Shown: positions 55,597-64,000, counted from the first letter of the stretch. The stretch is DNA of 64,000 nt from Chloroflexota bacterium (GCA_002719675.1 PBID01000016.1:2837-66836), one strand, 5' to 3'. Program-made: numbers and translations. Notes: generated by a model not told the origin, from the letters alone.

Positions 55597-57243
55597 ATGT
55601 TTGATGTTTTAATACGTGGTGGTTCTATAGTAGATGGAACAGGCAAATCAGCTTACAAAGGAGATATAGGGATAAAAGGTGATAAGATTATCGAAATTGG
55701 AGATCTTTCTTTAGCTGAAAGTAAAGAATTTATTGACGCTGAAGGGATGGTTGTTTCTCCTGGGTTTATAGATACACATGTTCATTCTGATGCTGTATTA
55801 CTTACTAATCCTCAACATCCTCAAGGACTAATGCAAGGGATCACTACTGAAATTTTAGGTCAAGATGGTCTTTCCTATGCACCTTTGTCAAAGAAGAATT
55901 TTTTAGAATATAGTAGATATTTGAAGGGTATTTTGGGTTCTCCACCCGAAGATATGAAGACTGCTTCAGTGGCAGAGTTTAGAAGCAATTATCATAAGAA
56001 AACAGCTATAAATACTGCATATTTGATTGCACATGGAGCTCTTCATTTAGAAGTATTAGGATTTCAAGATCGTAGAATGTCCGGAGATTTAATGTCTAGG
56101 GCAAAAGATTTAATCAGAGAGGGCATGGAACAAGGTGCTGTAGGCTTTGCCACTGGTCTTACTTATCATCCTCATGCTTGGAGTTATACCGAAGAGATTG
56201 TTGAATTATGTAAAGTTGTCAGTGAATTTGGAGGGGTTTATGTGACGCATCTTAGAGATGTGAATACAGATCGAGCAATTGGAGGTGGTGGAATTCCTGA
56301 AGCACTTGCTGTTGGTCAACTTTCATCTGTTAAAGTTCATTTTTCACATCATCGAACAGCAGAAAAAACTGCTGGAAAAGTCAATGCAAGAATGAGTTTG
56401 ATTGATCAAGCTAAATCAGAAGGAGTCGATGTTACTGGAGATTTATATCCATATCCAACAGGATCAACTTTTCCAATGGCATCTATGCCTAGTTATGTAC
56501 ACCAAGGAGGAACTCAAGCTATTCTGGACGTATTATCTGACAAAGATGGTTTTAAACAAATGTCTGATTATTTCAATGAGAGTAATCGTTTGAGTAAAAT
56601 TTTACCGGACCCAGAGTCTGAAAAAGCTAGCTTACAAAAACCTAGAGATCATACGTTAGATCTTGATGATACCATTTTAACATTTGTCCCAGGAAATCCT
56701 GAATATGAAGGTGTGCCAGTTAAAGAAGCTGCAGAAAATATGGGGATGAGTATGGGTGAAGCTATGTGCAAATTGTTATTGGATTCTGAACTTTGTATTG
56801 GATTTTGGGGGACACCGCCAGACAATGTTCAAGTTTGGGATCAATTAGGAAAAGATTTTATAGAAATTTTGTCTAGGGACGATTTTATGGTGGGAAGTGA
56901 TTCAATACACTTAGGTAAATTTAGACATCCTAGAGGTCATGGTACATTTCCAAGATTCTTAGGAAGGCTACGAAGAAAATATGATTTAATAAGTCTTGAA
57001 AAGATTGTGAATAGAGTTACAGGAACTCCTGCTGACCGGTTTGGGCTCACTAAACGAGGATATTTGAAGACAGGTTTTTTTGCTGATGTGGTTGTTTTTA
57101 ATCCTGAAACTTTGATTGATACTGCAACATATGATGATCCAATTCAATATCCTATAGGTATTTCGCATGTTTTGGTTAATGGAACAATTGCAGTTTCAGA
57201 ATCAAAATGCACTGGCAAACTAAATGGATATTCAATTCCGTAA
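55597..57243 (+). CDS. N-acyl-D-amino-acid deacylase family amidohydrolase (D-aminoacylase-like)
   Basis: DVLIRGGSIVDGTG...GDKIIEIG...PGFIDTHVHSD and the overall D-aminoacylase length and pattern. The ATG begins the nucleotide after the aspS TAA. Confidence 0.85.
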   Translation: MFDVLIRGGSIVDGTGKSAYKGDIGIKGDKIIEIGDLSLAESKEFIDAEGMVVSPGFIDTHVHSDAVLLTNPQHPQGLMQGITTEILGQDGLSYAPLSKKNFLEYSRYLKGILGSPPEDMKTASVAEFRSNYHKKTAINTAYLIAHGALHLEVLGFQDRRMSGDLMSRAKDLIREGMEQGAVGFATGLTYHPHAWSYTEEIVELCKVVSEFGGVYVTHLRDVNTDRAIGGGGIPEALAVGQLSSVKVHFSHHRTAEKTAGKVNARMSLIDQAKSEGVDVTGDLYPYPTGSTFPMASMPSYVHQGGTQAILDVLSDKDGFKQMSDYFNESNRLSKILPDPESEKASLQKPRDHTLDLDDTILTFVPGNPEYEGVPVKEAAENMGMSMGEAMCKLLLDSELCIGFWGTPPDNVQVWDQLGKDFIEILSRDDFMVGSDSIHLGKFRHPRGHGTFPRFLGRLRRKYDLISLEKIVNRVTGTPADRFGLTKRGYLKTGFFADVVVFNPETLIDTATYDDPIQYPIGISHVLVNGTIAVSESKCTGKLNGYSIP

Positions 57244-57267
57244 TTGTTGTTGATATAGGAGTTTTAG

Positions 57268-58410
57268 ATGAAAATTACATCCGTTGTACCTATTTTGGCA
57301 GATAGATTTTTGTTTGTAAAAATTATCACAGATAATGGTCTTGTTGGGATTGGAGAATCTGGAGCCTGGGGTTTCTTGGAAGCATCTGAGGCAGCAATAG
57401 TTAAATTTGGAGATTATTTAATTGGTAAGGATCCATTACTTATTGAACATCATTGGCAGACGATGTACAACACCAGTAATTTCAGAGGCGCAGCAATTAT
57501 GGGGGCTATCAGTGCAATAGATATTGCTTTGTGGGATATTGCTGGTAAAAATTTTCAAGTTCCTGTTTATCAATTATTAGGCGGAAAAGTCAGAAATAAA
57601 GCTAGAGTTTATTATCATGTTTACGGAGATACTAGGCAAAAATTATTAGATGGAATCAAAGAAGCTAAAGATTCAGGTTTTACAGCTGTGGGTCATTTAA
57701 CACCTTTTTTGGATGAAGATATTTCTGTTCCTTTTTATAAAAGTCATGTAGATAAAATGAAGAATGCTATTGATGCAGTTGAAATGTATAGAGAAGTAGC
57801 TGGAAATGATTTGGATTTATGTATAGAAATACATCGAAGATTAACTCCAGCTGAAGCTATAGTTTTAGGCAGAGGAATCGAACAGTTTTATCCCATGTTT
57901 TATGAAGATCCTATTTTGCCAGATAATTTAGATTCTATGGCTGAAGTGGCATCTAAAATCAATATTCCTATAGCTACAGGAGAAAGGATTCATACTACTT
58001 ATGAATTTAGTATGTTATTGAATAGAAATGCTGTTCAATATATTAGGCCAGATGTTTGTCTTGCTGGAGGCTTGACTCATTCTAAAAAAATAGCAGCTTT
58101 GGCAGAAGCAAATTATGTTAATGTTGTACCTCATAATCCTTTGAGTCCAGTTAGTACAGCCGCTTGTATCCAATTAGCCGCTTGTATTCCAAATTTTTCT
58201 ATTCAAGAATATCCGATAGGAGAAAATATTCATCCAAAAAGTTCACTGGTAAAAACCCCTTTGGAATTGGAAAATGGGTTCATTAAAATTCCAGATACTC
58301 CGGGTATAGGGATTGAGTTATCAGATGATATACAAGAAAAATGTCCACCAGTTAAATATGGACAAATAAATACTAGAAGACATTTCGATGGTTCTGTTGT
58401 TGTTCAATAA
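57268..58410 (+). CDS. Enolase-superfamily acid-sugar dehydratase, D-galactonate dehydratase (DgoD)-like
   Basis: Close by-eye match to the DgoD N-terminus (MKIT...GDYLIGKDP..WQTMY...AISAIDIALWDIAGK..VYQLLGGKVRNK) and barrel motifs FYEDP and ATGER. Confidence 0.85.
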   Translation: MKITSVVPILADRFLFVKIITDNGLVGIGESGAWGFLEASEAAIVKFGDYLIGKDPLLIEHHWQTMYNTSNFRGAAIMGAISAIDIALWDIAGKNFQVPVYQLLGGKVRNKARVYYHVYGDTRQKLLDGIKEAKDSGFTAVGHLTPFLDEDISVPFYKSHVDKMKNAIDAVEMYREVAGNDLDLCIEIHRRLTPAEAIVLGRGIEQFYPMFYEDPILPDNLDSMAEVASKINIPIATGERIHTTYEFSMLLNRNAVQYIRPDVCLAGGLTHSKKIAALAEANYVNVVPHNPLSPVSTAACIQLAACIPNFSIQEYPIGENIHPKSSLVKTPLELENGFIKIPDTPGIGIELSDDIQEKCPPVKYGQINTRRHFDGSVVVQ

Positions 58411-58444
58411 AACAAATATTATAAATTTTAGAAAAGAGGTTTAA

Positions 58445-59767
58445 ATGACTTCAATTAATCAAAGATATTCTGAAAAATTCAGAAAATCTGGTGACCTATA
58501 TTCAAAAGGACATGGAGTTATACCTGGAGGAGGACATCAATCTAGGGTGCAAAAACCTTTTCCATATTTCGTTAGTAATGCCAAAGGATCAATAAAATAT
58601 GATGTAGACGGGAATAGGATAATTGATTATATGATGGGGTTTGGTTCTTTAATCCTTGGGCATTCTCATCCTGAAGTCGTTGAAAGCGTTACAAACCAGG
58701 TCGAAAATGGAACACATTTTGGAGCATTGAGTGAATTAGAGTTAACGTGGGCCAGTAAAGTTCAAAATTTAATTCCCAGTGCTAAAAGGGTTCGATTTAC
58801 AAGTTCTGGAACAGAAGCAACTTTATTAGCTATGCGTTTGGCCAGAGGATATACCGGTAAAAATAAGATAATAAAATTTGTTGAACATTATCACGGTTGG
58901 CATGATTATGCTATTCCACAATCTGGTTTAAATACAGAATTTGGTATTCCAAGTGACACATTGAATTCTGTAGTTGTTCTTGAACCTAAAATTAGTTTAA
59001 TTGAAGATTATCTTAAGAGTAATGAAGATGTTGCTGGGATTATTTTTGAGGCTACAGGTGGTCATTGGGGACAGTTTCCTTTACAAAACCCTACTTTTGT
59101 TAAGGATTTACGTGAATTGACCACTAGATATGGCGTGATTATGATTATGGATGAAGTGATTTGTGGATTTAGAATGTCTAAGGGAGGAGCTCAAAGCAGG
59201 TTTGACGTAATCCCTGATTTAACTACCATGGCCAAAATTGTTGCAGGAGGTTTACCAGGAGGTTCAGTAGCGGGAGATGAGAAAATCATGTCTTTATTAA
59301 GTGAACAAGATGGTGTTCAAAAAATGTTTCATCCTGGGACTTTTAATGCTAATCCAGTTTCTGCTGCATCAGGAATAGCTACACTTAATTTGATTTCTAA
59401 AGAATCAATTAACCAAAAAGCTGATCAGTCTGCTAAAAAACTAAAGTCTGGCCTAAGAGAAGTTTTACATAAAATGGAAGTGAAGGGTCACGTACACGGC
59501 ATTGCATCTATTGTCCATTTGGTTTTGGGTGTTGAAGGCGAAGAATCTACGGAAGGTGTTTCCTCGGTATCCCATTCTGAGTTGGCTAAAGCTACTATGG
59601 GAGATGTTCCTAAAACGTTGAAAACAGCGTTTTTAAATGAAGGAATTGATATTATGGGTGGAATGGGCTTTTTTGTCTCAGCAGTACATTCTGAGGCTGA
59701 TATTTCAGAAACTGTCGAAAAGTTTGAGAACGTACTTATTGCTTTAAGAATTGACGGAGTTATTTGA
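58445..59767 (+). CDS. Class III (omega) aminotransferase, glutamate-1-semialdehyde aminomutase-like
   Basis: PLP-fold pattern (SGTEATLLAMRLAR, IMDEVICGFR, Schiff-base Lys in TMAKIVAGGLPGG). Confidence 0.85.
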   Translation: MTSINQRYSEKFRKSGDLYSKGHGVIPGGGHQSRVQKPFPYFVSNAKGSIKYDVDGNRIIDYMMGFGSLILGHSHPEVVESVTNQVENGTHFGALSELELTWASKVQNLIPSAKRVRFTSSGTEATLLAMRLARGYTGKNKIIKFVEHYHGWHDYAIPQSGLNTEFGIPSDTLNSVVVLEPKISLIEDYLKSNEDVAGIIFEATGGHWGQFPLQNPTFVKDLRELTTRYGVIMIMDEVICGFRMSKGGAQSRFDVIPDLTTMAKIVAGGLPGGSVAGDEKIMSLLSEQDGVQKMFHPGTFNANPVSAASGIATLNLISKESINQKADQSAKKLKSGLREVLHKMEVKGHVHGIASIVHLVLGVEGEESTEGVSSVSHSELAKATMGDVPKTLKTAFLNEGIDIMGGMGFFVSAVHSEADISETVEKFENVLIALRIDGVI

Positions 59768-59823
59768 TCTTTCGCTTTAACAAAGTATTTAGTTTATACT
59801 TTGTTAAATCTAAGGAGCTTGAT

Positions 59824-60312
59824 ATGTTGCCTAAATATTTTAAAGTTTTATTAATCTTTATTTTGGCAAACATCACATTTTTTGCTTTTGTTGATTGCGG
59901 ATCTGGAAATAAAACAATTAAAGGGGTCATTGTTGAAGGCTCTGTTTTATATGGAATAGGTTCTAAAACAAGCGGCTTTAATATTAAATCTGAACAAGAT
60001 CAAAGAGTTAAAGAAAAAAAATTACAGTCTATTTTATGGCAATCTTTTGAATACAAAATGATTAATAATAGATTTTTAGGAGCTTCTGGTGGAGCGCAAA
60101 GGGAACAGTTTTGCGTTGTATCAGGAAGTTCAGCTGGAATAGCAGTTGGAACTGAAGTTGATGTTGTAGAAGAAGCTACTTGTATGTGGGTATTACATCA
60201 GATTGACTCTCAGAATTCTGATAGATATCAAGTTAGCTTAACTAAAGTCCGATCTGTTGAAACAGGGGAAACGGGATGGACTTGGAGTAAATCTGTTAAG
60301 ATCTCAGAATAA
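59824..60312 (+). CDS. Hypothetical lipoprotein
   Basis: I prefer ATG 59824, 7 nt after SD AAGGAG. Signal peptide with a lipobox-like FVDC. I recognise no family. Confidence 0.55.
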   Translation: MLPKYFKVLLIFILANITFFAFVDCGSGNKTIKGVIVEGSVLYGIGSKTSGFNIKSEQDQRVKEKKLQSILWQSFEYKMINNRFLGASGGAQREQFCVVSGSSAGIAVGTEVDVVEEATCMWVLHQIDSQNSDRYQVSLTKVRSVETGETGWTWSKSVKISE

Positions 60313-60323
60313 AGTGAAAAATA

Positions 60324-60875
60324 TCAGTTTGCTTGATTGTCTGGATCAACTGGTTTATTTGATCTGTTTTTAATTATTGTTCTAATTGTTAAACTTAAAG
60401 CTATAATAAATGCTAGTAATGCTATAGAAGTAAGGATTCCTTGAAAAGGATCGCGTTTGACAACGTTACTTTCGAAATAAACAGTATTTGTTTGTATACC
60501 ATCATTTATAGTGAATCTGAATTGCCACATACCTTCAGTAGCTATTTCAATGTTTGAATGATAGTGACCAAGTTCGATTGTTTGAGTCATGTTTTTGTTA
60601 ATTGGATAAACTTTTTGCTGGTTTTCCTTTGCGGAAAAAGATACATTGCCTTTAGTCATGGGTTCTTCAGAATTGATATAGTTGATTTTTAAAGATATTT
60701 TTAAATTCCCTGTTGTAGGAGATTGTGGAGTGGTTCCAAAACCAATTTTGAAAGGATCTGACTCTTGGTATCGATAATTTATTTGTCCATTGGCAAAAAG
60801 TATTTCAGTGGAATAAATACATGAAGTAATTACAATTAATAAAAGTAAATATATGAAGCTTGAATCATGTTTCAT
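60324..60875 (-). CDS. Bitopic membrane protein with FixH/YtkA-like beta-sandwich ectodomain (tentative)
   Basis: N-terminal TM or signal (FIYLLLLIVITSCIYS), a beta-rich region with G.Y......EG.W.F pattern (LGHYHSNIEIATEGMWQFRFTINDG), and a C-terminal TM plus basic tail. The ATG lies 1 nt after the upstream stop (TAAaATG). Confidence 0.5.
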   Translation of the reverse strand: MKHDSSFIYLLLLIVITSCIYSTEILFANGQINYRYQESDPFKIGFGTTPQSPTTGNLKISLKINYINSEEPMTKGNVSFSAKENQQKVYPINKNMTQTIELGHYHSNIEIATEGMWQFRFTINDGIQTNTVYFESNVVKRDPFQGILTSIALLAFIIALSLTIRTIIKNRSNKPVDPDNQAN

Positions 60876-60876
60876 T

Positions 60877-62295
60877 TTAATCAATTTTGAAATTTTTTTG
60901 AGACATAAGTAAGCCTAGATTAATTAAGAAATCATCTGTTTTGAAACCATTGGGTAATTGGGAAGGGATTTCTAATTGAGTATTAGTAAGGTCTAGATTT
61001 TTTGATATTTTTTCAATATTTGAAAGATGAGTATCTTTTATTTTGCCAGTGAATATTAATGGTACAAAAGAACTAATACCTAATTCGTTATGAGTTAAAT
61101 TATGCTCATTTAAGGTGTTTGTTAATACATCTAATATTTTTTCAAATATTTCTTCTTTTTCGATAGAAAATTGTTGTCCCCAATATGCTGTTTGATAAGT
61201 TAAAGGTATCCAATTTTTTATTACAATTACCTCACAACCATCTTCAGATAAATATACACATACTGCATCTTTACGATTTACTGCCCTTGCAATTGCAAAC
61301 GGTTTAGGTTCAAGTATAAATGAAGTTTTTTTTGTAAATGAAACAGATGAAACCCAAGATTTAATTGATTTTTTTGTTGAAGAAATTGCTATCCATTTGT
61401 TTGTGTCAGATTGAGAATTATATTGCATCCATTTAATTTGGGAAATTTCTGATGAAATTCCAAATTTTTGATGCATTTGTATAGGGATAACTGAATTGGG
61501 TTTGATTTTACCAAATCGAGGCAATTCGATATTTCTAATGGTTGTTTGATAACCAGGAACGGCACCAAAAATCTTTAGATTTGTTGAAGAAACTCCATTT
61601 TCATTTAAAGTGTATTCTAGTAAGTTCGATGTCATTTGTGATTCTATAACTAGGCCTTCTTGGAAATGTGATTTTGGTAAGTTTACTTTCCAGCAGTCTA
61701 CAATTTGATTTTTTTCATATATTAATATCTTGGACACTCCAAATTCAAAAGTGATTGAAGCAATTTTTTTTGTTTTAAATTGAGGAAGATTTAAATTTAT
61801 TTGAGAAATTTTATTAAATAAAACTTTCGAGTTTTTAGAATATATTGATGTAATAATTTTTTTTGATTTGCAATATATATTTAGAGTCTTATTAATTAAT
61901 GATTTATTGATTGCTTTCAAATGTTTTTTAAAAGTATTGATATTGATTGTTTTAATATTTATTGAATGGAATGTTTTTATTAGTGTTTTAGGTATTTGCA
62001 AGAAATTTTTTTTAGATATAGAAATTTTGAAATTTAAGGGTAATAATTTTTTTTTCGTTCCTATATTTATTTTTTGAGGGTTTTTGTTTGAAATATTTAA
62101 TTGATTTTTTGAAACATCAATATCATTCATTATTATTTGAAGAACTAAATGTTTGTTTTTTTTTAATTCTGACAATAAATCTTGAGGGATAGCCTCAGGA
62201 GCTGAAATTGTTACTTTATCATTAACTATTTCAAATTCAGCACCTAAATTTTTAGCTTCATTGATTAACAGTTTAGTATTTTGTAAACCTTGCAT
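60877..62295 (-). CDS. Docking-domain-like N-terminus + Lys/Asn/Ile-rich linker + degenerate PilM/FtsA-like actin-fold domain (tentative)
   Basis: I prefer ATG 62295 (TAATG overlap with the upstream stop). The N-terminus LLINEAKNLGAEFEIVNDKVTISAPEAIPQDLLSELKKNKHLVLQII fits the TubC-N-type docking pattern. The C-terminal ~290 aa align by eye with PilM (ITFEFGVSKILIYE.., ..LPKSHFQEGLV.., KIFGAVPGYQTTIRNIELP, LEPKPFAIARAV, VYLSEDGCEVIVIKN). Confidence 0.5.
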   Translation of the reverse strand: MQGLQNTKLLINEAKNLGAEFEIVNDKVTISAPEAIPQDLLSELKKNKHLVLQIIMNDIDVSKNQLNISNKNPQKINIGTKKKLLPLNFKISISKKNFLQIPKTLIKTFHSINIKTININTFKKHLKAINKSLINKTLNIYCKSKKIITSIYSKNSKVLFNKISQINLNLPQFKTKKIASITFEFGVSKILIYEKNQIVDCWKVNLPKSHFQEGLVIESQMTSNLLEYTLNENGVSSTNLKIFGAVPGYQTTIRNIELPRFGKIKPNSVIPIQMHQKFGISSEISQIKWMQYNSQSDTNKWIAISSTKKSIKSWVSSVSFTKKTSFILEPKPFAIARAVNRKDAVCVYLSEDGCEVIVIKNWIPLTYQTAYWGQQFSIEKEEIFEKILDVLTNTLNEHNLTHNELGISSFVPLIFTGKIKDTHLSNIEKISKNLDLTNTQLEIPSQLPNGFKTDDFLINLGLLMSQKNFKID

Positions 62296-62705
62296 TAAAG
62301 TTCCTCTACCCACTTCGATATCTGAGGTTTTGATTTTATTTTTTGAGGGTTTTTATTTTCTGTATTAATAAAATGTTCAATCAAATGATTTTGGGCAGTG
62401 TTTTCTTCAACAATATATTTACCACATATTAAACAGACATATTCGTTTCTTGGAATTCTAGATGTCATTTTTATTAAGTTTAAATTTAATAAAACAGAGG
62501 GTGTATTTTTATACTGGGATTTAAATCTTTGAATTGTGATGATATTTACTTTTAATGTTTCACTAATGCGTTTTGATGACCATCCTTCTAAAATGGCCCA
62601 CAATATAAATCGTTTCTCATCATCATTCAATCTTTTTTGCAATGATTGTTTTTTTCTTGATGGAAAATTATTTCTAAAAATATCGGATAAAGTTTTTTCA
62701 GGCAT
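62295..62705 (-). CDS. Small DNA-binding protein: HTH (sigma-70 region-4/LuxR-like) plus C2H2-type zinc-finger signature
   Basis: HTH-like DDEKRFILWAILEGWSSKRISETLKVNIITIQRF, then YVCLICGKYIVEENTAQNHLIEH, which is C-x2-C-x12-H-x3-H. Confidence 0.55.
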   Translation of the reverse strand: MPEKTLSDIFRNNFPSRKKQSLQKRLNDDEKRFILWAILEGWSSKRISETLKVNIITIQRFKSQYKNTPSVLLNLNLIKMTSRIPRNEYVCLICGKYIVEENTAQNHLIEHFINTENKNPQKIKSKPQISKWVEEL

Positions 62706-62737
62706 AATATGTTAAATTTATATTTAAATGTTATATA

Positions 62738-62766
62738 ATTGTAATAATCATTTATTAATAAAGCAA
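62738..62766 (-). promoter_or_regulatory. Candidate sigma70-type promoter of the 62705-60324 operon
   Basis: The minus strand reads TTGCTT (62766-62761), a 17-nt spacer, then TACAAT (62743-62738). This sits about 33 nt upstream of the ATG at 62705. Confidence 0.3.
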
Positions 62767-62824
62767 TACTTTTTTTGTCCATTAATCAGGAAAAATTATT
62801 ACTGTTAAAATCAAATATTTTTCT

Positions 62825-62852
62825 AAAATGATATAAAAATGATATAAAAATG
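62825..62852. repeat. 11-nt tandem repeat (2.5 copies) in the intergenic spacer
   Basis: AAAATGATATA AAAATGATATA AAAATG, with a period of one helical turn. It lies 60-90 nt upstream of the candidate -35 and just downstream of the enolase-family stop. Confidence 0.6.
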
Positions 62853-62865
62853 TAACAAGATGATT

Positions 62866-63981
62866 TTAGACTTTATATTTGTTGAGTAGGTCCATGTTAA
62901 GTTCAAAACCTATACCTGGTCTGGTAGGCAAAGTAACGAATCCATCATTTTCTGGACGTAGTGCAGGTAGAAACATTTCTGTTCTGATTGGGTCAACTTC
63001 TGTTGGGTAATATTCTAAAAATATTCCGTTTTTAGTTGCCGCTGCTAAAGGTAATTGTAGTTCTTGGCATCCATGTGGGGCAATCAAAATCTTGTTGGTT
63101 TCTGCCATTTTACTGATTTCTAGGCCTATATCATATCCGCCACAAATAGTTACGTCTACGTTAAATATTGAAGCTGCATTATTAGTAATTAAATTTTGAA
63201 AATGTTCTTTTGTATATCCATTTTCTCCTGTTGCAATTTCAATTTCCGTACTTTCAGAAAGTATTCTGTGTCCTTCATAATCGTATATGTTCAAGGGTTC
63301 TTCAAACCAGAATATGTCATATGGTTCTAATTCTTTTGCAAATTCAAGTGCTTGTTTTAAATTTAATGCACAATTTGCATCTACCATTAATTTTATATCA
63401 GGTCCAATAGCTATTCGAGATGCTTCTACTCGTTTGATATCGTTAGCAATTCCAGTCTCTTGAGATCCAATTTTAATTTTCACTGCTGTTGCATGTAATT
63501 CATTTATGTTATATTGAAGCTCGTTTTGCAGTTCTTTGATACCTTTTCCTTTAGCATAATAACCCCCTGCAATGTATGATCTAATACGTTTCTGTTCTCC
63601 TCCAAGCATTTGATGGATAGATAAATTTTCTATTTTTCCTTTAATATCCCAGCAAGCAATATTGATAGCAGATAGCACTTGTGTATTTAATCCAGCAGGA
63701 CCAAGTATTTTAATCATATTTGTACCTAAGTCCGTTAAAATTTTTTTAGTATTAGTTGGGTTTTGATCAATAAGTAGAGGTTTAAAATATTCCACATATC
63801 CAGGCATCAAATGTAAAGGCCTTTCAGCAGCAGTACCTCCATTCCAACCAGTACCAGTAATACCTTCATCTGTGTATATAGTTACCTTATGAAGTTTTCC
63901 TGGTCCATAAAAATGATTTCCATTCCAAATCCCTGGTCGTTCCCATTCAAAAACTTCACTTGTTACATCTATTATTTTCAT
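62866..63981 (-). CDS. Enolase-superfamily enzyme (mandelate racemase subgroup-like; specificity unknown)
   Basis: Capping domain (SAINIACWDIKGK..IHQMLGG) and metal-ligand motifs LMVDAN, FWFEEP and ATGEN. Confidence 0.85.
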   Translation of the reverse strand: MKIIDVTSEVFEWERPGIWNGNHFYGPGKLHKVTIYTDEGITGTGWNGGTAAERPLHLMPGYVEYFKPLLIDQNPTNTKKILTDLGTNMIKILGPAGLNTQVLSAINIACWDIKGKIENLSIHQMLGGEQKRIRSYIAGGYYAKGKGIKELQNELQYNINELHATAVKIKIGSQETGIANDIKRVEASRIAIGPDIKLMVDANCALNLKQALEFAKELEPYDIFWFEEPLNIYDYEGHRILSESTEIEIATGENGYTKEHFQNLITNNAASIFNVDVTICGGYDIGLEISKMAETNKILIAPHGCQELQLPLAAATKNGIFLEYYPTEVDPIRTEMFLPALRPENDGFVTLPTRPGIGFELNMDLLNKYKV

Positions 63982-64000
63982 GAATTGTTACCTAATATAA

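What the first reader, a model, noticed from the sequence alone, without database searches (positions are those of the whole stretch)
60324..62865. Translationally coupled three-gene operon with an unrecognised domain combination
Three minus-strand ORFs are tightly coupled. The first junction is a stop/start TAATG at 62293-62297. The second is TAA-a-ATG at 60873-60879. They sit behind a 160-nt AT-rich spacer that holds a plausible promoter (TTGCTT-17-TACAAT) and an 11-nt tandem repeat.

- Gene 1 is a small HTH protein with a eukaryote-style C2H2 zinc-finger signature.
- Gene 2 joins a ~50-aa module resembling NRPS-type (TubC-N) docking domains, through a ~130-aa Lys/Asn/Ile-rich linker, to a PilM/FtsA-like actin fold. 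The first phosphate-binding motif of that fold is degenerate (ITFEFG instead of DIGS).
- Gene 3 is a bitopic membrane protein with a FixH/YtkA-like beta-sandwich and an HYH motif.

I see no pilN/O/P/Q, pilin, secretin or traffic ATPase gene nearby. I know of no described system with this trio. The pairing of an actin-like pseudo-ATPase with a membrane partner and a dedicated regulator suggests a membrane-associated scaffold or signalling module.
Basis: partly seen in the sequence, partly recalled or inferred. Interest (0 to 1): 0.72.

Follow-up and report, generated by a model that had tools for sequence, protein, structure and literature searches.

The report
Repurposed PilM-like three-gene module, SAR202
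A three-gene operon seen here only in the ocean bacterial group SAR202 links a DNA-binding zinc-finger protein, apparently through a docking domain otherwise known from antibiotic-synthesis enzymes, to a repurposed pilus-assembly (PilM-like) protein and a small membrane protein; public records call these proteins hypothetical, and the function is inferred, not shown.

Summary
Three minus-strand genes (g1 62705-62295, g2 62295-60877, g3 60875-60324) are joined by TAATG and TAA-a-ATG. All three are under purifying selection (dN/dS 0.16-0.27).

- **g1** is an HTH plus a CX2CX12HX3H finger that is invariant across the family.
- **g2** has an NRPS-type beta-hairpin docking domain (bhD), a 112-aa K/I/N-rich linker, and a PilM-fold domain (AlphaFold pLDDT 89.5; best Foldseek matches are PilM, then FtsA).
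- **g3** is a bitopic membrane protein with only weak YtkA-like similarity. Its HYH motif is not conserved outside the low-GC clade.

New findings:

- Distant high-GC relatives, one of them a named SAR202 MAG, keep the same g1-g2-g3 order.
- Five relatives fuse the g1 module directly to the PilM-like domain.
- Every split g1 ends in W-x-[EQ]-[ED]-L and precedes a g2 that starts with a bhD. Fusions have neither feature. This points to tail-to-bhD docking.
- In relatives, g3-like genes sit beside cupredoxin and CopCD genes.
- The upstream 11-nt repeat and the promoter are conserved across five loci.

Best reading: a membrane-tethered, ToxR/CadC-like transcription regulator built from separate parts. 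The architecture is well supported; the signalling function is inferred. I found no description of it.

The parts
62825..62852 (-). 11-nt tandem direct repeat (CATTTTTATAT x 2.5), a candidate operator or upstream regulatory site
   Evidence: TRF finds period 11, 2.5 copies, 100% match. The block is invariant in 4 of 5 orthologous loci and differs at 3 positions in the fifth, although dS is 0.6-1.4. No other good copy occurs in the window.
62738..62766 (-). Promoter-like element: TTGCTT, 17 nt, TACAAT
   Evidence: Read directly from the sequence. The -10 and its surroundings are invariant, and the -35 is TTGmTT in all five loci. The -35 is too weak for the generic scan. A TTGnnn-17-TAnnAT element also sits upstream of high-GC relatives.
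62295..62705 (-). g1: 136-aa cytoplasmic HTH plus single C2H2-type finger protein
   Evidence: ORF. dN/dS 0.16-0.20. Nine close homologues. The same module forms the N-terminus of P0028, P0030, P0038, P0039 and P0040.
62496..62633 (-). g1 helix-turn-helix (residues ~25-70), of HTH_23 / sigma-70 region 4 / LuxR type
   Evidence: Pfam HTH_23 scores 1.4e-3 for the window protein. It matches 8 of 9 family members, best 4.4e-7. PDB profile hits include 3CLO, Rns, SsrB and a sigma factor.
62373..62441 (-). g1 zinc-finger signature Y-x-C-x2-C-x12-H-x3-H (residues 89-111)
   Evidence: C91, C94, H107 and H111 are invariant in the family alignment A11, which includes 26-38% identical relatives. The profile hits classical eukaryotic C2H2 fingers: HIC2 4.4e-6, ZBTB20 1.2e-4, and weakly Zif268.
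62298..62318 (-). g1 C-terminal tail SKWVEEL, a candidate short linear docking motif W-x-[EQ]-[ED]-L-COOH
   Evidence: S130, W132, E135 and L136 are invariant in close homologues while the preceding ~15 residues vary. The same terminal motif occurs in all three distant split g1-like proteins: EWWEEEL, EGWEEEL and GDWEEDL. It is absent from the fusions.
60877..62295 (-). g2: 472-aa cytoplasmic protein made of a bhD, a linker and a PilM-like domain
   Evidence: ORF. The ATG overlaps the g1 stop. Five close homologues. dN/dS 0.20-0.21. No hydrophobic segment.
62116..62295 (-). g2 N-terminal beta-hairpin docking domain (residues 1-60), TubC_N-like
   Evidence: [quoted passage not shown] Pfam TubC_N scores 0.022 here, and 2.7e-5 and 1.2e-3 in relatives. 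The profile hits the NRPS docking domains 6EWT (4.2e-4) and EpoB 5T7Z (0.022). This is the most constrained part of g2 in two of three comparisons (dN/dS 0.06, 0.09 and 0.19).
61780..62115 (-). g2 low-complexity linker (residues 61-172; K 21%, I 17%, N 15%) with one invariant island, SNKNP-KIN
   Evidence: Composition. pLDDT is below 35. dN/dS 0.27-0.47. Relatives carry unrelated P/A/E/D-rich linkers of about 100 to 830 aa at the same place.
60880..61779 (-). g2 C-terminal PilM-like actin-fold domain (residues 173-472)
   Evidence: An exhaustive HMM search gave 212 hits; 41 of 71 scanned carry Pfam PilM_2 and 17 are PilM-PilN fusions. The AlphaFold model has pLDDT 89.5 and pTM 0.87. Foldseek top hits are PilM 5EQ6, 5EOU, 2YCH and 3JC8 (E 5e-15 to 1e-13, TM up to 0.70), then FtsA and GspL.
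60324..60875 (-). g3: 183-aa type-I membrane protein with a signal or N-terminal hydrophobic segment (4-29), a ~110-aa extracytoplasmic domain, a TM helix (142-170) and a basic cytoplasmic tail
   Evidence: ORF. Hydropathy. Eight close homologues. dN/dS 0.20-0.27. Distant homologues lie next to g2 relatives in L009, L016 and L017. Pfam YtkA scores only 0.0037, and only in the L009 homologue.

Best explanation
The three genes encode one cytoplasm-to-envelope assembly, seen so far only in SAR202-assigned or unassigned metagenome contigs. It works like a ToxR/CadC-type membrane-tethered transcription regulator, but it is built from separate parts.

1. g1 is the DNA-binding head: a sigma-region-4/LuxR-like HTH plus one classical-spacing C2H2 finger.
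2. g1 is held on g2 non-covalently. Its last five residues (W-x-E-E-L) dock on the N-terminal beta-hairpin docking domain of g2. This is how an NRPS subunit's C-terminal short motif docks on the next subunit. In several relatives a covalent fusion of the two proteins replaces this joint.
3. A long disordered linker lets the head reach DNA.
4. The PilM-derived actin-fold domain of g2 is the membrane-proximal adaptor. PilM clamps the cytoplasmic peptide of bitopic PilN, and FtsA binds FtsN. By analogy, g2 is proposed to hold the short basic cytoplasmic tail of g3.
5. The extracytoplasmic domain of g3 would report an envelope condition. Copper or another metal is the leading guess, because of the neighbours of g3 homologues in relatives.
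6. The output is changed DNA binding by g1, probably including autoregulation through the conserved 11-nt direct repeats upstream of the operon's promoter.

Shown here: the anatomy, the folds, conservation of the trio, the fusion/split pattern and the conserved non-coding block. Inferred: every physical contact, the signal and the regulatory output.
For: **Architecture and folds**
- g2 C-terminus is PilM-like.
- g2 N-terminus is a bhD.
- g1 is an HTH plus C2H2 finger.
- g3 is bitopic.

**g1 and g2 act together**
- Five relatives (P0028, P0030, P0038, P0039, P0040) carry the g1 module fused through a linker to the PilM-like domain.
- In all split cases the g1 stop and g2 start overlap.

**Docking**
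- All four independent split lineages end g1 in W-x-[EQ]-[ED]-L-COOH. This holds whether g1 is 136, 369, 717 or 725 aa long.
- In each, g2 begins with a bhD. No fusion has either feature.
- Published bhD domains bind the last ~5 residues of a C-terminal short motif through salt bridges and a hydrophobic face (PMC9113145).

**g3 belongs to the module**
- g3 homologues follow g2 relatives in L017 (overlapping; E 4e-14) and L016.
- They also follow the fused g2 relative in L009.
- This holds although all other neighbours differ from the window.

**Envelope or metal context in relatives**
- Neighbours include a cupredoxin (2e-7), a CopC-CopD-cytochrome c fusion, a His-rich membrane protein and a conserved 516-aa Cys-rich membrane protein.

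**Regulation**
- The 11-nt repeat and the promoter are near-invariant across five loci despite saturated synonymous sites.

**Precedents (background knowledge and PDB entry titles)**
- PilM binds PilN residues 1-12 (5EOU, 2YCH).
- FtsA binds FtsN residues 1-29 (7Q6I).
Against: - No interaction was tested.
- The cytoplasmic tail of g3 is basic but has no strongly conserved motif across lineages.
- Four lineages of g2 relatives (L005, L007, L012, L018) have no g3-like gene within 8 kb. g3 is therefore not obligatory, or it is encoded elsewhere.
- The window locus has no copper genes nearby.
- The histidines of HYH are not conserved outside the low-GC clade, which weakens a metal-sensor reading for the family as a whole.
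- Linkers of up to ~830 aa with repeated WHxAFExL motifs are not explained.
- The repeat lies ~58 nt upstream of the -35 and only 14 nt after the upstream gene's stop. It could instead belong to that gene's 3' end.
- The HTH hits are all below Pfam thresholds for the window protein.
Confidence: 0.42

Rival explanations
1. Nucleoid-to-membrane tether or cell-division/positioning scaffold. The PilM/FtsA-like domain polymerises or binds the membrane machinery as FtsA does. The long flexible linker and the HTH-finger head tie DNA to it, as RacA-DivIVA or FtsA-type scaffolds do. Transcription is not the output.
For: - FtsA is the second-best structural match.
- Linkers are very long and variable (100 to ~830 aa) and carry repeated short motifs. 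This suits a spacer or tether.
- In three high-GC loci a conserved pair of coiled-coil proteins lies directly upstream. Their DivIVA Pfam similarity is only faint.
- g3 is dispensable in several lineages.
Against: - The DivIVA hits are far below threshold (E 0.02-0.1), and the pair is absent from the low-GC loci.
- PilM, not FtsA, is the closest fold and sequence relative.
- No C-terminal amphipathic membrane-targeting helix is evident; the protein ends with the last helix of the fold.
- The conserved link to g3 and to envelope metal proteins is left unexplained.
Confidence: 0.2
2. An accessory part of a type IV filament machine (pilus or archaellum) encoded elsewhere in the genome. g2 is a working PilM that carries its own regulator, and g3 substitutes for PilN.
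For: - The nearest stand-alone relative with context, P0037 (E 2.4e-40), sits between PilN/PilO-like genes and a PilC (T2SSF) gene.
- Many weaker hits are PilM-PilN fusions.
- A fragment in one relative's cluster carries the KEGG label K02662 (pilM).
- Chloroflexota, including SAR202, carry type IV filament systems, and PilM/N/O have been reused around other machines (PMC12488501, PMC13319060).
Against: - No pilus or secretion gene lies next to the trio in any of nine distinct trio-type loci (L001-L004, L005, L007, L009, L012, L016-L018).
- None appeared in the partial Pfam census of the 64-kb window, which listed only the first 25 of 89 families.
- g3 has the opposite topology to PilN: a large N-terminal ectodomain and a C-terminal anchor. 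It shows no PilN/PilO similarity.
- Members of the g2 subfamily whose N-terminus could be identified carry an HTH-finger or a bhD, which canonical PilM lacks.
Confidence: 0.12
3. An envelope copper-handling assembly module. g3 is a YtkA/CopC-like metallochaperone. g2 is a cytoplasmic scaffold for it and for neighbouring copper proteins. The HTH of g1 serves as a protein-binding domain, not a DNA-binding one.
For: - Cupredoxin, CopCD-cytochrome c, a His-rich protein and a Cys-rich 516-aa membrane protein lie beside g3 homologues in L009, L016 and L017.
- There is a weak YtkA hit and a non-significant PDB 'copper resistance protein' hit.
Against: - The low-GC loci have none of these neighbours.
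- No metal ligand is conserved in the g3 family.
- An HTH plus C2H2 head on a long linker is most simply a nucleic-acid binder.
- The conserved upstream repeat suggests regulation at the DNA level.
Confidence: 0.1

Closest known systems
PilM of the type IV pilus alignment complex (T. thermophilus 2YCH, P. aeruginosa 5EOU, M. xanthus 3JC8; Pfam PF11104)
   Same: - Same actin-like fold of the FtsA/PilM type; PilM chains are the best Foldseek hits (E ~1e-14, TM up to 0.70).
- Homology is traceable through intermediate sequences.
- It is a cytoplasmic protein encoded next to a bitopic membrane protein.
   Different: - No Pfam PilM_2 hit for g2 itself.
- The domain is ~295 aa rather than ~350.
- Both phosphate motifs are non-canonical in the profile alignment to 2YCH: T-x-E for E/D-x-G, and Y-L-S for D-x-G (and sequence).
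- An N-terminal bhD plus linker, or an HTH-finger, is added.
- There are no pilN/O/P/Q, pilin, ATPase or platform genes nearby.
- The partner membrane protein has the opposite topology to PilN.
Beta-hairpin docking domain / C-terminal short-motif pairs of NRPS and PKS-NRPS megasynthases (TubC, EpoB, Kj12A-C, Bamb_5915; Pfam PF18563)
   Same: [quoted passage not shown]
- The upstream partner ends in a short conserved charged/hydrophobic tail.
- The partners are encoded by consecutive genes.
- A split/fused alternation occurs, as in engineered NRPSs (PMC9113145).
   Different: - There are no carrier-protein, condensation or other megasynthase domains. The docked proteins are a DNA-binding protein and a PilM-like protein.
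- According to the review, the >1400 catalogued pairs are all in megasynthase contexts.
- Sequence scores are below the Pfam threshold.
ToxR / CadC-type membrane-integrated one-component regulators
   Same: The proposed logic is the same: an extracytoplasmic domain, one TM helix, a disordered cytoplasmic linker and a DNA-binding head that works while tethered to the membrane.
   Different: - Those are single polypeptides with an OmpR-type winged HTH.
- Here the parts sit on two or three proteins joined by a PilM-like adaptor and a docking domain.
- No sequence relationship exists. The resemblance is functional inference only.
ROK-family repressors (Mlc, NagC)
   Same: - An HTH joined to an actin-like (ASKHA) fold domain, with a zinc site.
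- From background knowledge, Mlc is controlled by sequestration at a membrane protein (the EIIB domain of PtsG).
   Different: - A different branch of the ASKHA fold (sugar-kinase type, not PilM/FtsA).
- No long linker and no docking domain.
- No homology was detected here.
Classical C2H2 zinc fingers (Zif268 type) and bacterial Ros/MucR fingers
   Same: The CX2CX12HX3H spacing is identical to the eukaryotic consensus, and the profile hits many eukaryotic fingers.
   Different: - It is a single finger next to an HTH in a bacterium.
- From background knowledge, Ros/MucR fingers use a shorter Cys-His spacing and a different fold.
- Zinc binding and fold were not tested here.
YtkA-like / FixH / CopC-type extracytoplasmic beta-sandwich proteins
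   Same: - Similar size and predicted extracytoplasmic location, with a membrane anchor.
- Homologues sit in copper-type neighbourhoods.
- One relative hits YtkA at E = 0.0037.
   Different: - No hit for the window protein.
- No significant PDB match.
- No conserved metal ligands.

Membership tests
PilM (type IV pilus, PF11104) | Actin-like fold of the FtsA/PilM type | tested here: met
   AlphaFold model with pLDDT 89.5. The ten best Foldseek hits are PilM chains, E 5e-15 to 1e-13.
PilM (type IV pilus, PF11104) | Matches the Pfam PilM_2 model at its curated threshold | tested here: not met
   No PilM_2 hit for g2 or its close homologues even at E <= 10. The link is only transitive: the g2 C-terminal profile hits proteins of which 41 of 71 match PilM_2.
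PilM (type IV pilus, PF11104) | Encoded with pilN/pilO (and pilP/Q) and the pilus core genes | tested here: not met
   None next to the trio in the window or in syntenic and distant loci. For the rest of the window the Pfam census was partial.
PilM (type IV pilus, PF11104) | Canonical nucleotide-binding motifs (phosphate 1, phosphate 2, adenosine) | tested here: inconclusive
   In the profile alignment to 2YCH, phosphate 1 is T-F-E and phosphate 2 is Y-L-S in g2 (plus sequence). The same deviation occurs in related Chloroflexota-type PilM homologues. Binding was not assayed.
PilM (type IV pilus, PF11104) | Binds the N-terminal cytoplasmic peptide of PilN | not testable with these tools
   No PilN is present, and no complex prediction was available.
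Beta-hairpin docking domain (TubC_N, PF18563) | [quoted passage not shown] | tested here: met
   Model elements H2-17, E21-25, E28-32, H39-47 and H49-59, with pLDDT 61-81.
Beta-hairpin docking domain (TubC_N, PF18563) | Sequence match to the family | tested here: inconclusive
   Pfam TubC_N gives 15.3 bits (E 0.022) for g2 and 24.6 bits for P0024, against a cut-off of 26. The profile of six sequences hits 6EWT at 4.2e-4, 5T7Z at 0.022, and 6EWU, 6EWV and 6EWS weakly.
Beta-hairpin docking domain (TubC_N, PF18563) | The upstream partner carries a C-terminal short linear motif that docks on it | tested here: inconclusive
   A conserved W-x-[EQ]-[ED]-L-COOH co-occurs with the bhD in 4 of 4 split lineages. 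Both are absent in 5 of 5 fusions. Physical binding was not tested.
Beta-hairpin docking domain (TubC_N, PF18563) | Part of an NRPS/PKS assembly line | tested here: not met
   No megasynthase domains in g1, g2 or the neighbours.
Classical C2H2 zinc finger | C-X2-4-C-X12-H-X3-5-H signature, conserved | tested here: met
   C91, C94, H107 and H111 are invariant in A11, which includes 26-38% identical relatives.
Classical C2H2 zinc finger | Beta-beta-alpha fold and zinc binding | not tested
Pfam finger models score below threshold.
YtkA-like (PF13115) / FixH | Sequence match to the family model | tested here: not met
   No hit for g3 or its close homologues at E <= 10. There is only a sub-threshold hit (18.3 bits against 25.9) for the L009 homologue, and no significant PDB match.
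ToxR/CadC-type membrane-integrated regulators | A single polypeptide with an OmpR-type winged HTH, a TM helix and a periplasmic sensor | tested here: not met
   g1 and g2 have no TM segment, and the HTH is of HTH_23/sigma-region-4 type. This is an analogy of mechanism only.

The most novel reading that the evidence does not exclude
A previously undescribed way of wiring the envelope to DNA. A bitopic extracytoplasmic sensor (g3) is clamped by a PilM-derived actin-fold adaptor. That adaptor carries, on a long disordered arm, a classical-type C2H2/HTH transcription factor. The factor is attached either covalently or through an NRPS-style beta-hairpin docking domain and a five-residue C-terminal tail. 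If true, it would be the first docking-domain/short-motif pair known to me outside natural-product megasynthases. It would also be a reuse of the pilus protein PilM for gene regulation, in one of the most abundant bacterial groups of the deep ocean.
Probability: 0.3. Interest if true: 0.8.

Novelty: new variant of a known kind. Interest (0 to 1): 0.62.

Why it matters
- **Abundant but little-studied group.** SAR202 is among the most abundant bacterial groups of the dark ocean (background knowledge), and it has only recently been cultivated. A conserved, lineage-specific module under purifying selection is a concrete handle on its cell biology.
- **Portable docking joint.** The split/fused pattern suggests that the docking-domain/short-motif joint is a general, portable protein connector. 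Until now it has been treated as a speciality of NRPS/PKS assembly lines.
- **Reuse of PilM.** The PilM fold appears outside pilus machines, joined to a DNA-binding head.
- **A bacterial C2H2 finger.** It adds a finger with the classical eukaryotic C2H2 spacing to the short list of bacterial examples.
- **Directly testable.** Each of these points can be tested with small recombinant domains and peptides.

Tried and rejected
- **AlphaFold of full-length g2 with only six close homologues.** It failed (mean pLDDT 37). It worked once 45 remote homologues were added for the C-terminal domain.
- **PDB sequence search with the close-homologue profile.** No hits.
- **Pfam and NCBIfam on the window proteins.** Nothing at threshold.
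- **Word-index homology searches.** They found only 64-99% identical relatives. The exhaustive HMM search was needed.
- **Rfam on 59500-64000.** Nothing at E <= 1, so no known riboswitch or leader lies in the spacer.
- **Search for further copies of the 11-nt repeat in the window.** Only two 3-mismatch matches, which are unconvincing.
- **Alignment of upstream regions of high-GC relatives.** No shared operator beyond a promoter-like TTGnnn-17-TAnnAT.
- **Mobile-element origin, considered and rejected.**
  - For it: transposases flank relatives in L005 and L007, and HTH_23 is common in transposases.
  - Against it: the low-GC locus is stably syntenic among genomes diverged to dS ~1. It also has no composition anomaly beyond slightly lower GC.
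- **HYH as a family-wide metal site, rejected**.
- **Literature searches.** Searches for PilM-like/HTH, SAR202/PilM and membrane-sequestered PilM-like regulators found no description of this module.

Full report
**1. The observation**

- The window is AT-rich (GC 0.27-0.36).
- It carries housekeeping genes, including Hsp70/GrpE, tRNA synthetases, PurH and a phosphate ABC system.
- The junctions read TAATG (62297-62293) and TAA-a-ATG (60879-60873).
- The spacer to the upstream enolase-superfamily gene is 160 nt.
- It holds TTGCTT-17-TACAAT (62766-62738) and an 11-nt tandem repeat (62825-62852; 2.5 copies, 100% match).
- A generic promoter scan finds no excess of promoter-like sites in this AT-rich stretch (16 found, 19.9 expected). 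On sequence alone the promoter would be unconvincing.

**2. The genes and the spacer elements are real**

- Word-index searches of 5.8 billion proteins found only 5, 8 and 9 relatives of g2, g3 and g1. They are 64-99% identical and all unnamed.
- Four contigs carrying them keep the order MR_MLE, g1, g2, g3. One is a SAR202 cluster MAG (OSU_TB36, VFGW01000012.1).
- Against these orthologues dS is 0.6-1.4 and dN/dS is 0.16-0.27 for all three genes. Within g2 it is 0.06-0.19 for the N-terminal 60 residues, 0.27-0.47 for the linker and 0.16-0.17 for the C-terminal domain.
- At that divergence, the tandem repeat and the -35/-10 block with its downstream flank are still almost invariant in all five loci. 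They are under selection.
- Rfam finds nothing in the region.

**3. What g2 is**

*First attempts.* Curated libraries give nothing at threshold; the only hit is TubC_N at E = 0.022 for residues 11-53. A first AlphaFold run on six close homologues failed overall (pLDDT 37). It did fold residues 1-60 as alpha-beta-beta-alpha-alpha with pLDDT 61-81.

*Exhaustive search.* An HMM search of 1.84 billion representatives with the C-terminal 312 residues gave 212 hits.
- About twenty score E 1e-58 to 1e-26 and are 23-32% identical.
- Most of these carry the domain at the C-terminus, behind long low-complexity N-terminal regions.
- The weaker hits are ordinary PilM proteins: 41 of 71 scanned match Pfam PilM_2 and 17 are PilM-PilN fusions.

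*Fold.* With 50 of these sequences AlphaFold gives pLDDT 89.5 and pTM 0.87. The ten best Foldseek matches in the PDB are PilM chains (5EQ6, 5EOU, 2YCH, 3JC8; E 5e-15 to 1e-13, TM up to 0.70). FtsA and the cytoplasmic domain of GspL/EpsL follow. The mixed profile also hits PilM in the PDB by sequence (2YCH, 9.6e-27).

*Origin.* The nearest stand-alone relative whose context I could read (P0037) sits between PilN/PilO-like genes and a PilC gene. The g2 domain therefore looks derived from the pilus PilM of this phylum.

*Nucleotide motifs.* In the profile alignment to 2YCH, the phosphate-1 E-I-G of Thermus PilM aligns with T-F-E of g2. The phosphate-2 D-I-G aligns with Y-L-S (plus sequence). The motifs are non-canonical, but they are so in related Chloroflexota-type PilM homologues too. 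Whether nucleotide is bound is open.

**4. The N-terminal domain of g2 and the tail of g1**

- A profile of six N-terminal domains hits the NRPS docking domains Kj12B-NDD (6EWT, E = 4.2e-4), EpoB (5T7Z, 0.022) and Kj12A/C.
- Relatives P0024 and P0029 hit Pfam TubC_N at 2.7e-5 and 1.2e-3.
- In megasynthases this domain binds the last ~5 residues of a disordered C-terminal motif of the preceding subunit. Binding uses salt bridges and a hydrophobic face (PMC9113145).

The comparative pattern here matches that logic.
- **Fusions.** Five relatives (P0028, P0030, P0038, P0039, P0040) are single chains: a g1-like HTH-finger, a linker and the PilM-like domain. g1 aligns with the P0038 N-terminus at 29% identity (E = 8e-19). 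They have no docking domain and no W-x-E-E-L motif.
- **Split systems.** The window clade, L005, L016 and L017 each have a separate g1-like gene whose stop overlaps the start of a g2 that begins with the docking domain.
- **The tails.** The g1-like products are 136, 725, 369 and 717 aa long and cannot be aligned beyond the first ~115 residues. All end the same way: SKWVEEL, SRWIEEL, SNWIQEL and SKWKQEL in the window clade, and EGWEEEL, EWWEEEL and GDWEEDL in L005, L016 and L017.

I read this as a non-covalent joint that replaces a covalent one. It is comparative evidence, not a binding measurement.

**5. What g1 is**

- Across the family, including 26-38% identical relatives, C91, C94, H107 and H111 are invariant, with CX2CX12HX3H spacing.
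- The profile hits dozens of eukaryotic classical C2H2 fingers over exactly this stretch: HIC2 4.4e-6, ZBTB20 1.2e-4, and weakly Zif268, CTCF and others.
- Over residues ~16-90 it hits LuxR-type, AraC-type and sigma-region-4 HTHs.
- Pfam HTH_23 matches 8 of 9 members, best 4.4e-7.

g1 is therefore a DNA-binding-type head of an HTH plus one finger.

**6. What g3 is**

- It has two hydrophobic segments, residues 4-29 and 142-170. About 110 residues lie between them, and a basic C-terminal tail follows. This indicates a type-I membrane protein with an extracytoplasmic domain.
- No library places the window protein.
- Homologues lie beside g2 relatives in three other lineages:

| Locus | g3-like gene | Evidence |
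|---|---|---|
| L017 | 185 aa, overlapping the end of the g2-like gene | E = 4e-14 with a profile of the window clade alone |
| L016 | 198 aa, 0.5 kb downstream | E = 3.8e-9 with the same profile |
| L009-L011 | 183 aa, plus a paralogue abutting the fused gene | Pairwise E = 5e-14 |

- Only the L009 homologue gives a YtkA hit, and it is sub-threshold (E = 0.0037). The PDB gives nothing significant.

**7. Wider context**

- P0039 is annotated 'hypothetical protein [SAR202 cluster bacterium]' (MBM3933191.1). The g2 orthologue MQG18890.1 carries the same annotation. The only two loci with an organism name are therefore SAR202, one low-GC (0.32) and one high-GC (0.64). The other high-GC contigs (GC 0.62-0.65) are unassigned metagenome assemblies.
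- In the high-GC loci several envelope genes follow the g3-like gene:
  - a cupredoxin-like protein (Pfam Cupredoxin_1, 2.1e-7);
  - a conserved 516-aa polytopic Cys-rich membrane protein;
  - in L009, a His-rich membrane protein and a CopC-CopD-cytochrome c fusion.
- A pair of coiled-coil proteins with faint DivIVA similarity precedes the module in L016, L017 and L018.
- Four lineages (L005, L007, L012, L018) show no g3-like gene within 8 kb. L005 and L007 are IS-rich.
- No locus has pilus, secretin or traffic-ATPase genes next to the module.

**8. Mechanism**

The best-supported reading is a membrane-tethered regulator assembled from parts.
- g3 provides the ectodomain and the membrane anchor.
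- The PilM-like domain of g2 is the adaptor. This fold typically grips short cytoplasmic peptides of bitopic proteins: PilN residues 1-12 in 5EOU and 2YCH, and FtsN residues 1-29 in 7Q6I (entry titles).
- The disordered linker is the arm.
- g1 is the DNA-binding head, docked by its tail or fused.
- The conserved direct repeats upstream of the conserved promoter are the obvious candidate for autoregulation.
- The neighbours in relatives point to copper or another envelope metal as the cue.

Shown: anatomy, folds, conservation, the fusion/split pattern and the conserved non-coding elements. Inferred: all contacts, the signal and the output. I put 0.42 on this overall. The g1-g2 docking step alone is more likely than not.

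Rivals:
- a nucleoid-membrane tether or division scaffold (0.20);
- an accessory PilM for a type IV filament machine encoded elsewhere (0.12);
- a copper-handling assembly module without a DNA role (0.10).

**9. Comparison with what is known, and novelty**

- By fold and descent, g2 is a PilM relative. It fails the Pfam model and the genomic-context test for PilM, and it carries extra domains. I therefore do not file it as a pilus PilM.
- The docking domain resembles TubC_N-type domains in fold and in partner logic, but it lies outside any megasynthase. The review consulted lists only megasynthase contexts for the >1400 known pairs.
- The proposed logic resembles ToxR/CadC. The pairing of an HTH with an actin-like fold recalls ROK repressors such as Mlc. 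Both are analogies only.
- Literature searches found no description of this module.
- I rate it a new variant of known kinds: known folds in an undescribed combination, with function unproven. Interest is 0.62.

Noticed in passing
window 62335-62354 and 62066-62085 (minus strand): An exact 20-nt direct repeat, AAAAACCCTCAAAAAATAAA, occurs once in the g1 tail and once in the g2 linker (0 expected in shuffles). Both copies encode KNPQKI. In g2, SNKNP-KIN is the only invariant island of the linker across the clade. In g1 the motif exists only in the closest relatives. It may reflect a recent small gene conversion or a shared peptide motif. The KIN[IL] core faintly recalls, from memory, the PilN N-terminal peptide that PilM binds.
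   Followed up: partly
P0024, P0027, P0028, P0029, P0030, P0032, P0034, P0039; L005:5827-8004; L016:6396-8008: The disordered linkers of most high-GC relatives carry one to several copies of a conserved short motif, W-H-x-A-F-[EQ]-x-L. This holds for fused and split forms and for the long tails of g1-like proteins. The low-GC window clade lacks it. Its function is unknown.
   Followed up: partly
L009:14503-16056, L016:11271-12818, L017:12016-13566: A conserved ~516-aa polytopic membrane protein has a mature N-terminus starting AHGFGERYDLP and a Cys-rich CxxC...C...CxxC stretch. It has no Pfam family. It always lies downstream of the g3-like and cupredoxin genes.
   Followed up: partly
L016:4444-5854, L017:3958-5359, L018:6046-7430: A conserved tandem pair of ~220-aa and ~202-aa coiled-coil paralogues lies directly upstream of the module in three high-GC loci. 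Their DivIVA similarity is only faint. The pair is absent from the low-GC loci.
   Followed up: partly
L016:7502-9605: The g2-like gene appears split into a 168-aa ORF, which carries the docking domain and the start of the linker, and an overlapping 534-aa ORF (P0026). This is either a real split or a frameshift or assembly error in a long-read contig.
   Followed up: no
window 59764-60312 (+): A convergent 182-aa ORF ends 11 nt from the g3 stop. It has a lipoprotein-like N-terminus (…FAFVDCGSG…) and no Pfam family. A weak homologue occupies the same position in L002 and L004.
   Followed up: partly
window 55597-59767 and 62866-63981; L001-L004: The trio is embedded among two enolase-superfamily (MR_MLE) genes, a class-III aminotransferase and an amidohydrolase. 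This synteny is kept in the low-GC SAR202 loci. It is not kept in the high-GC relatives, so it is probably unrelated to the module.
   Followed up: partly
L005 and L007 flanks: Two high-GC relatives of the module sit among IS elements (DDE_3, Transposase_mut, IS110). In L007 the module also lies next to conjugation-type genes, with TraG/TrwB/relaxase-like hits. No g3-like gene is present at these loci.
   Followed up: no
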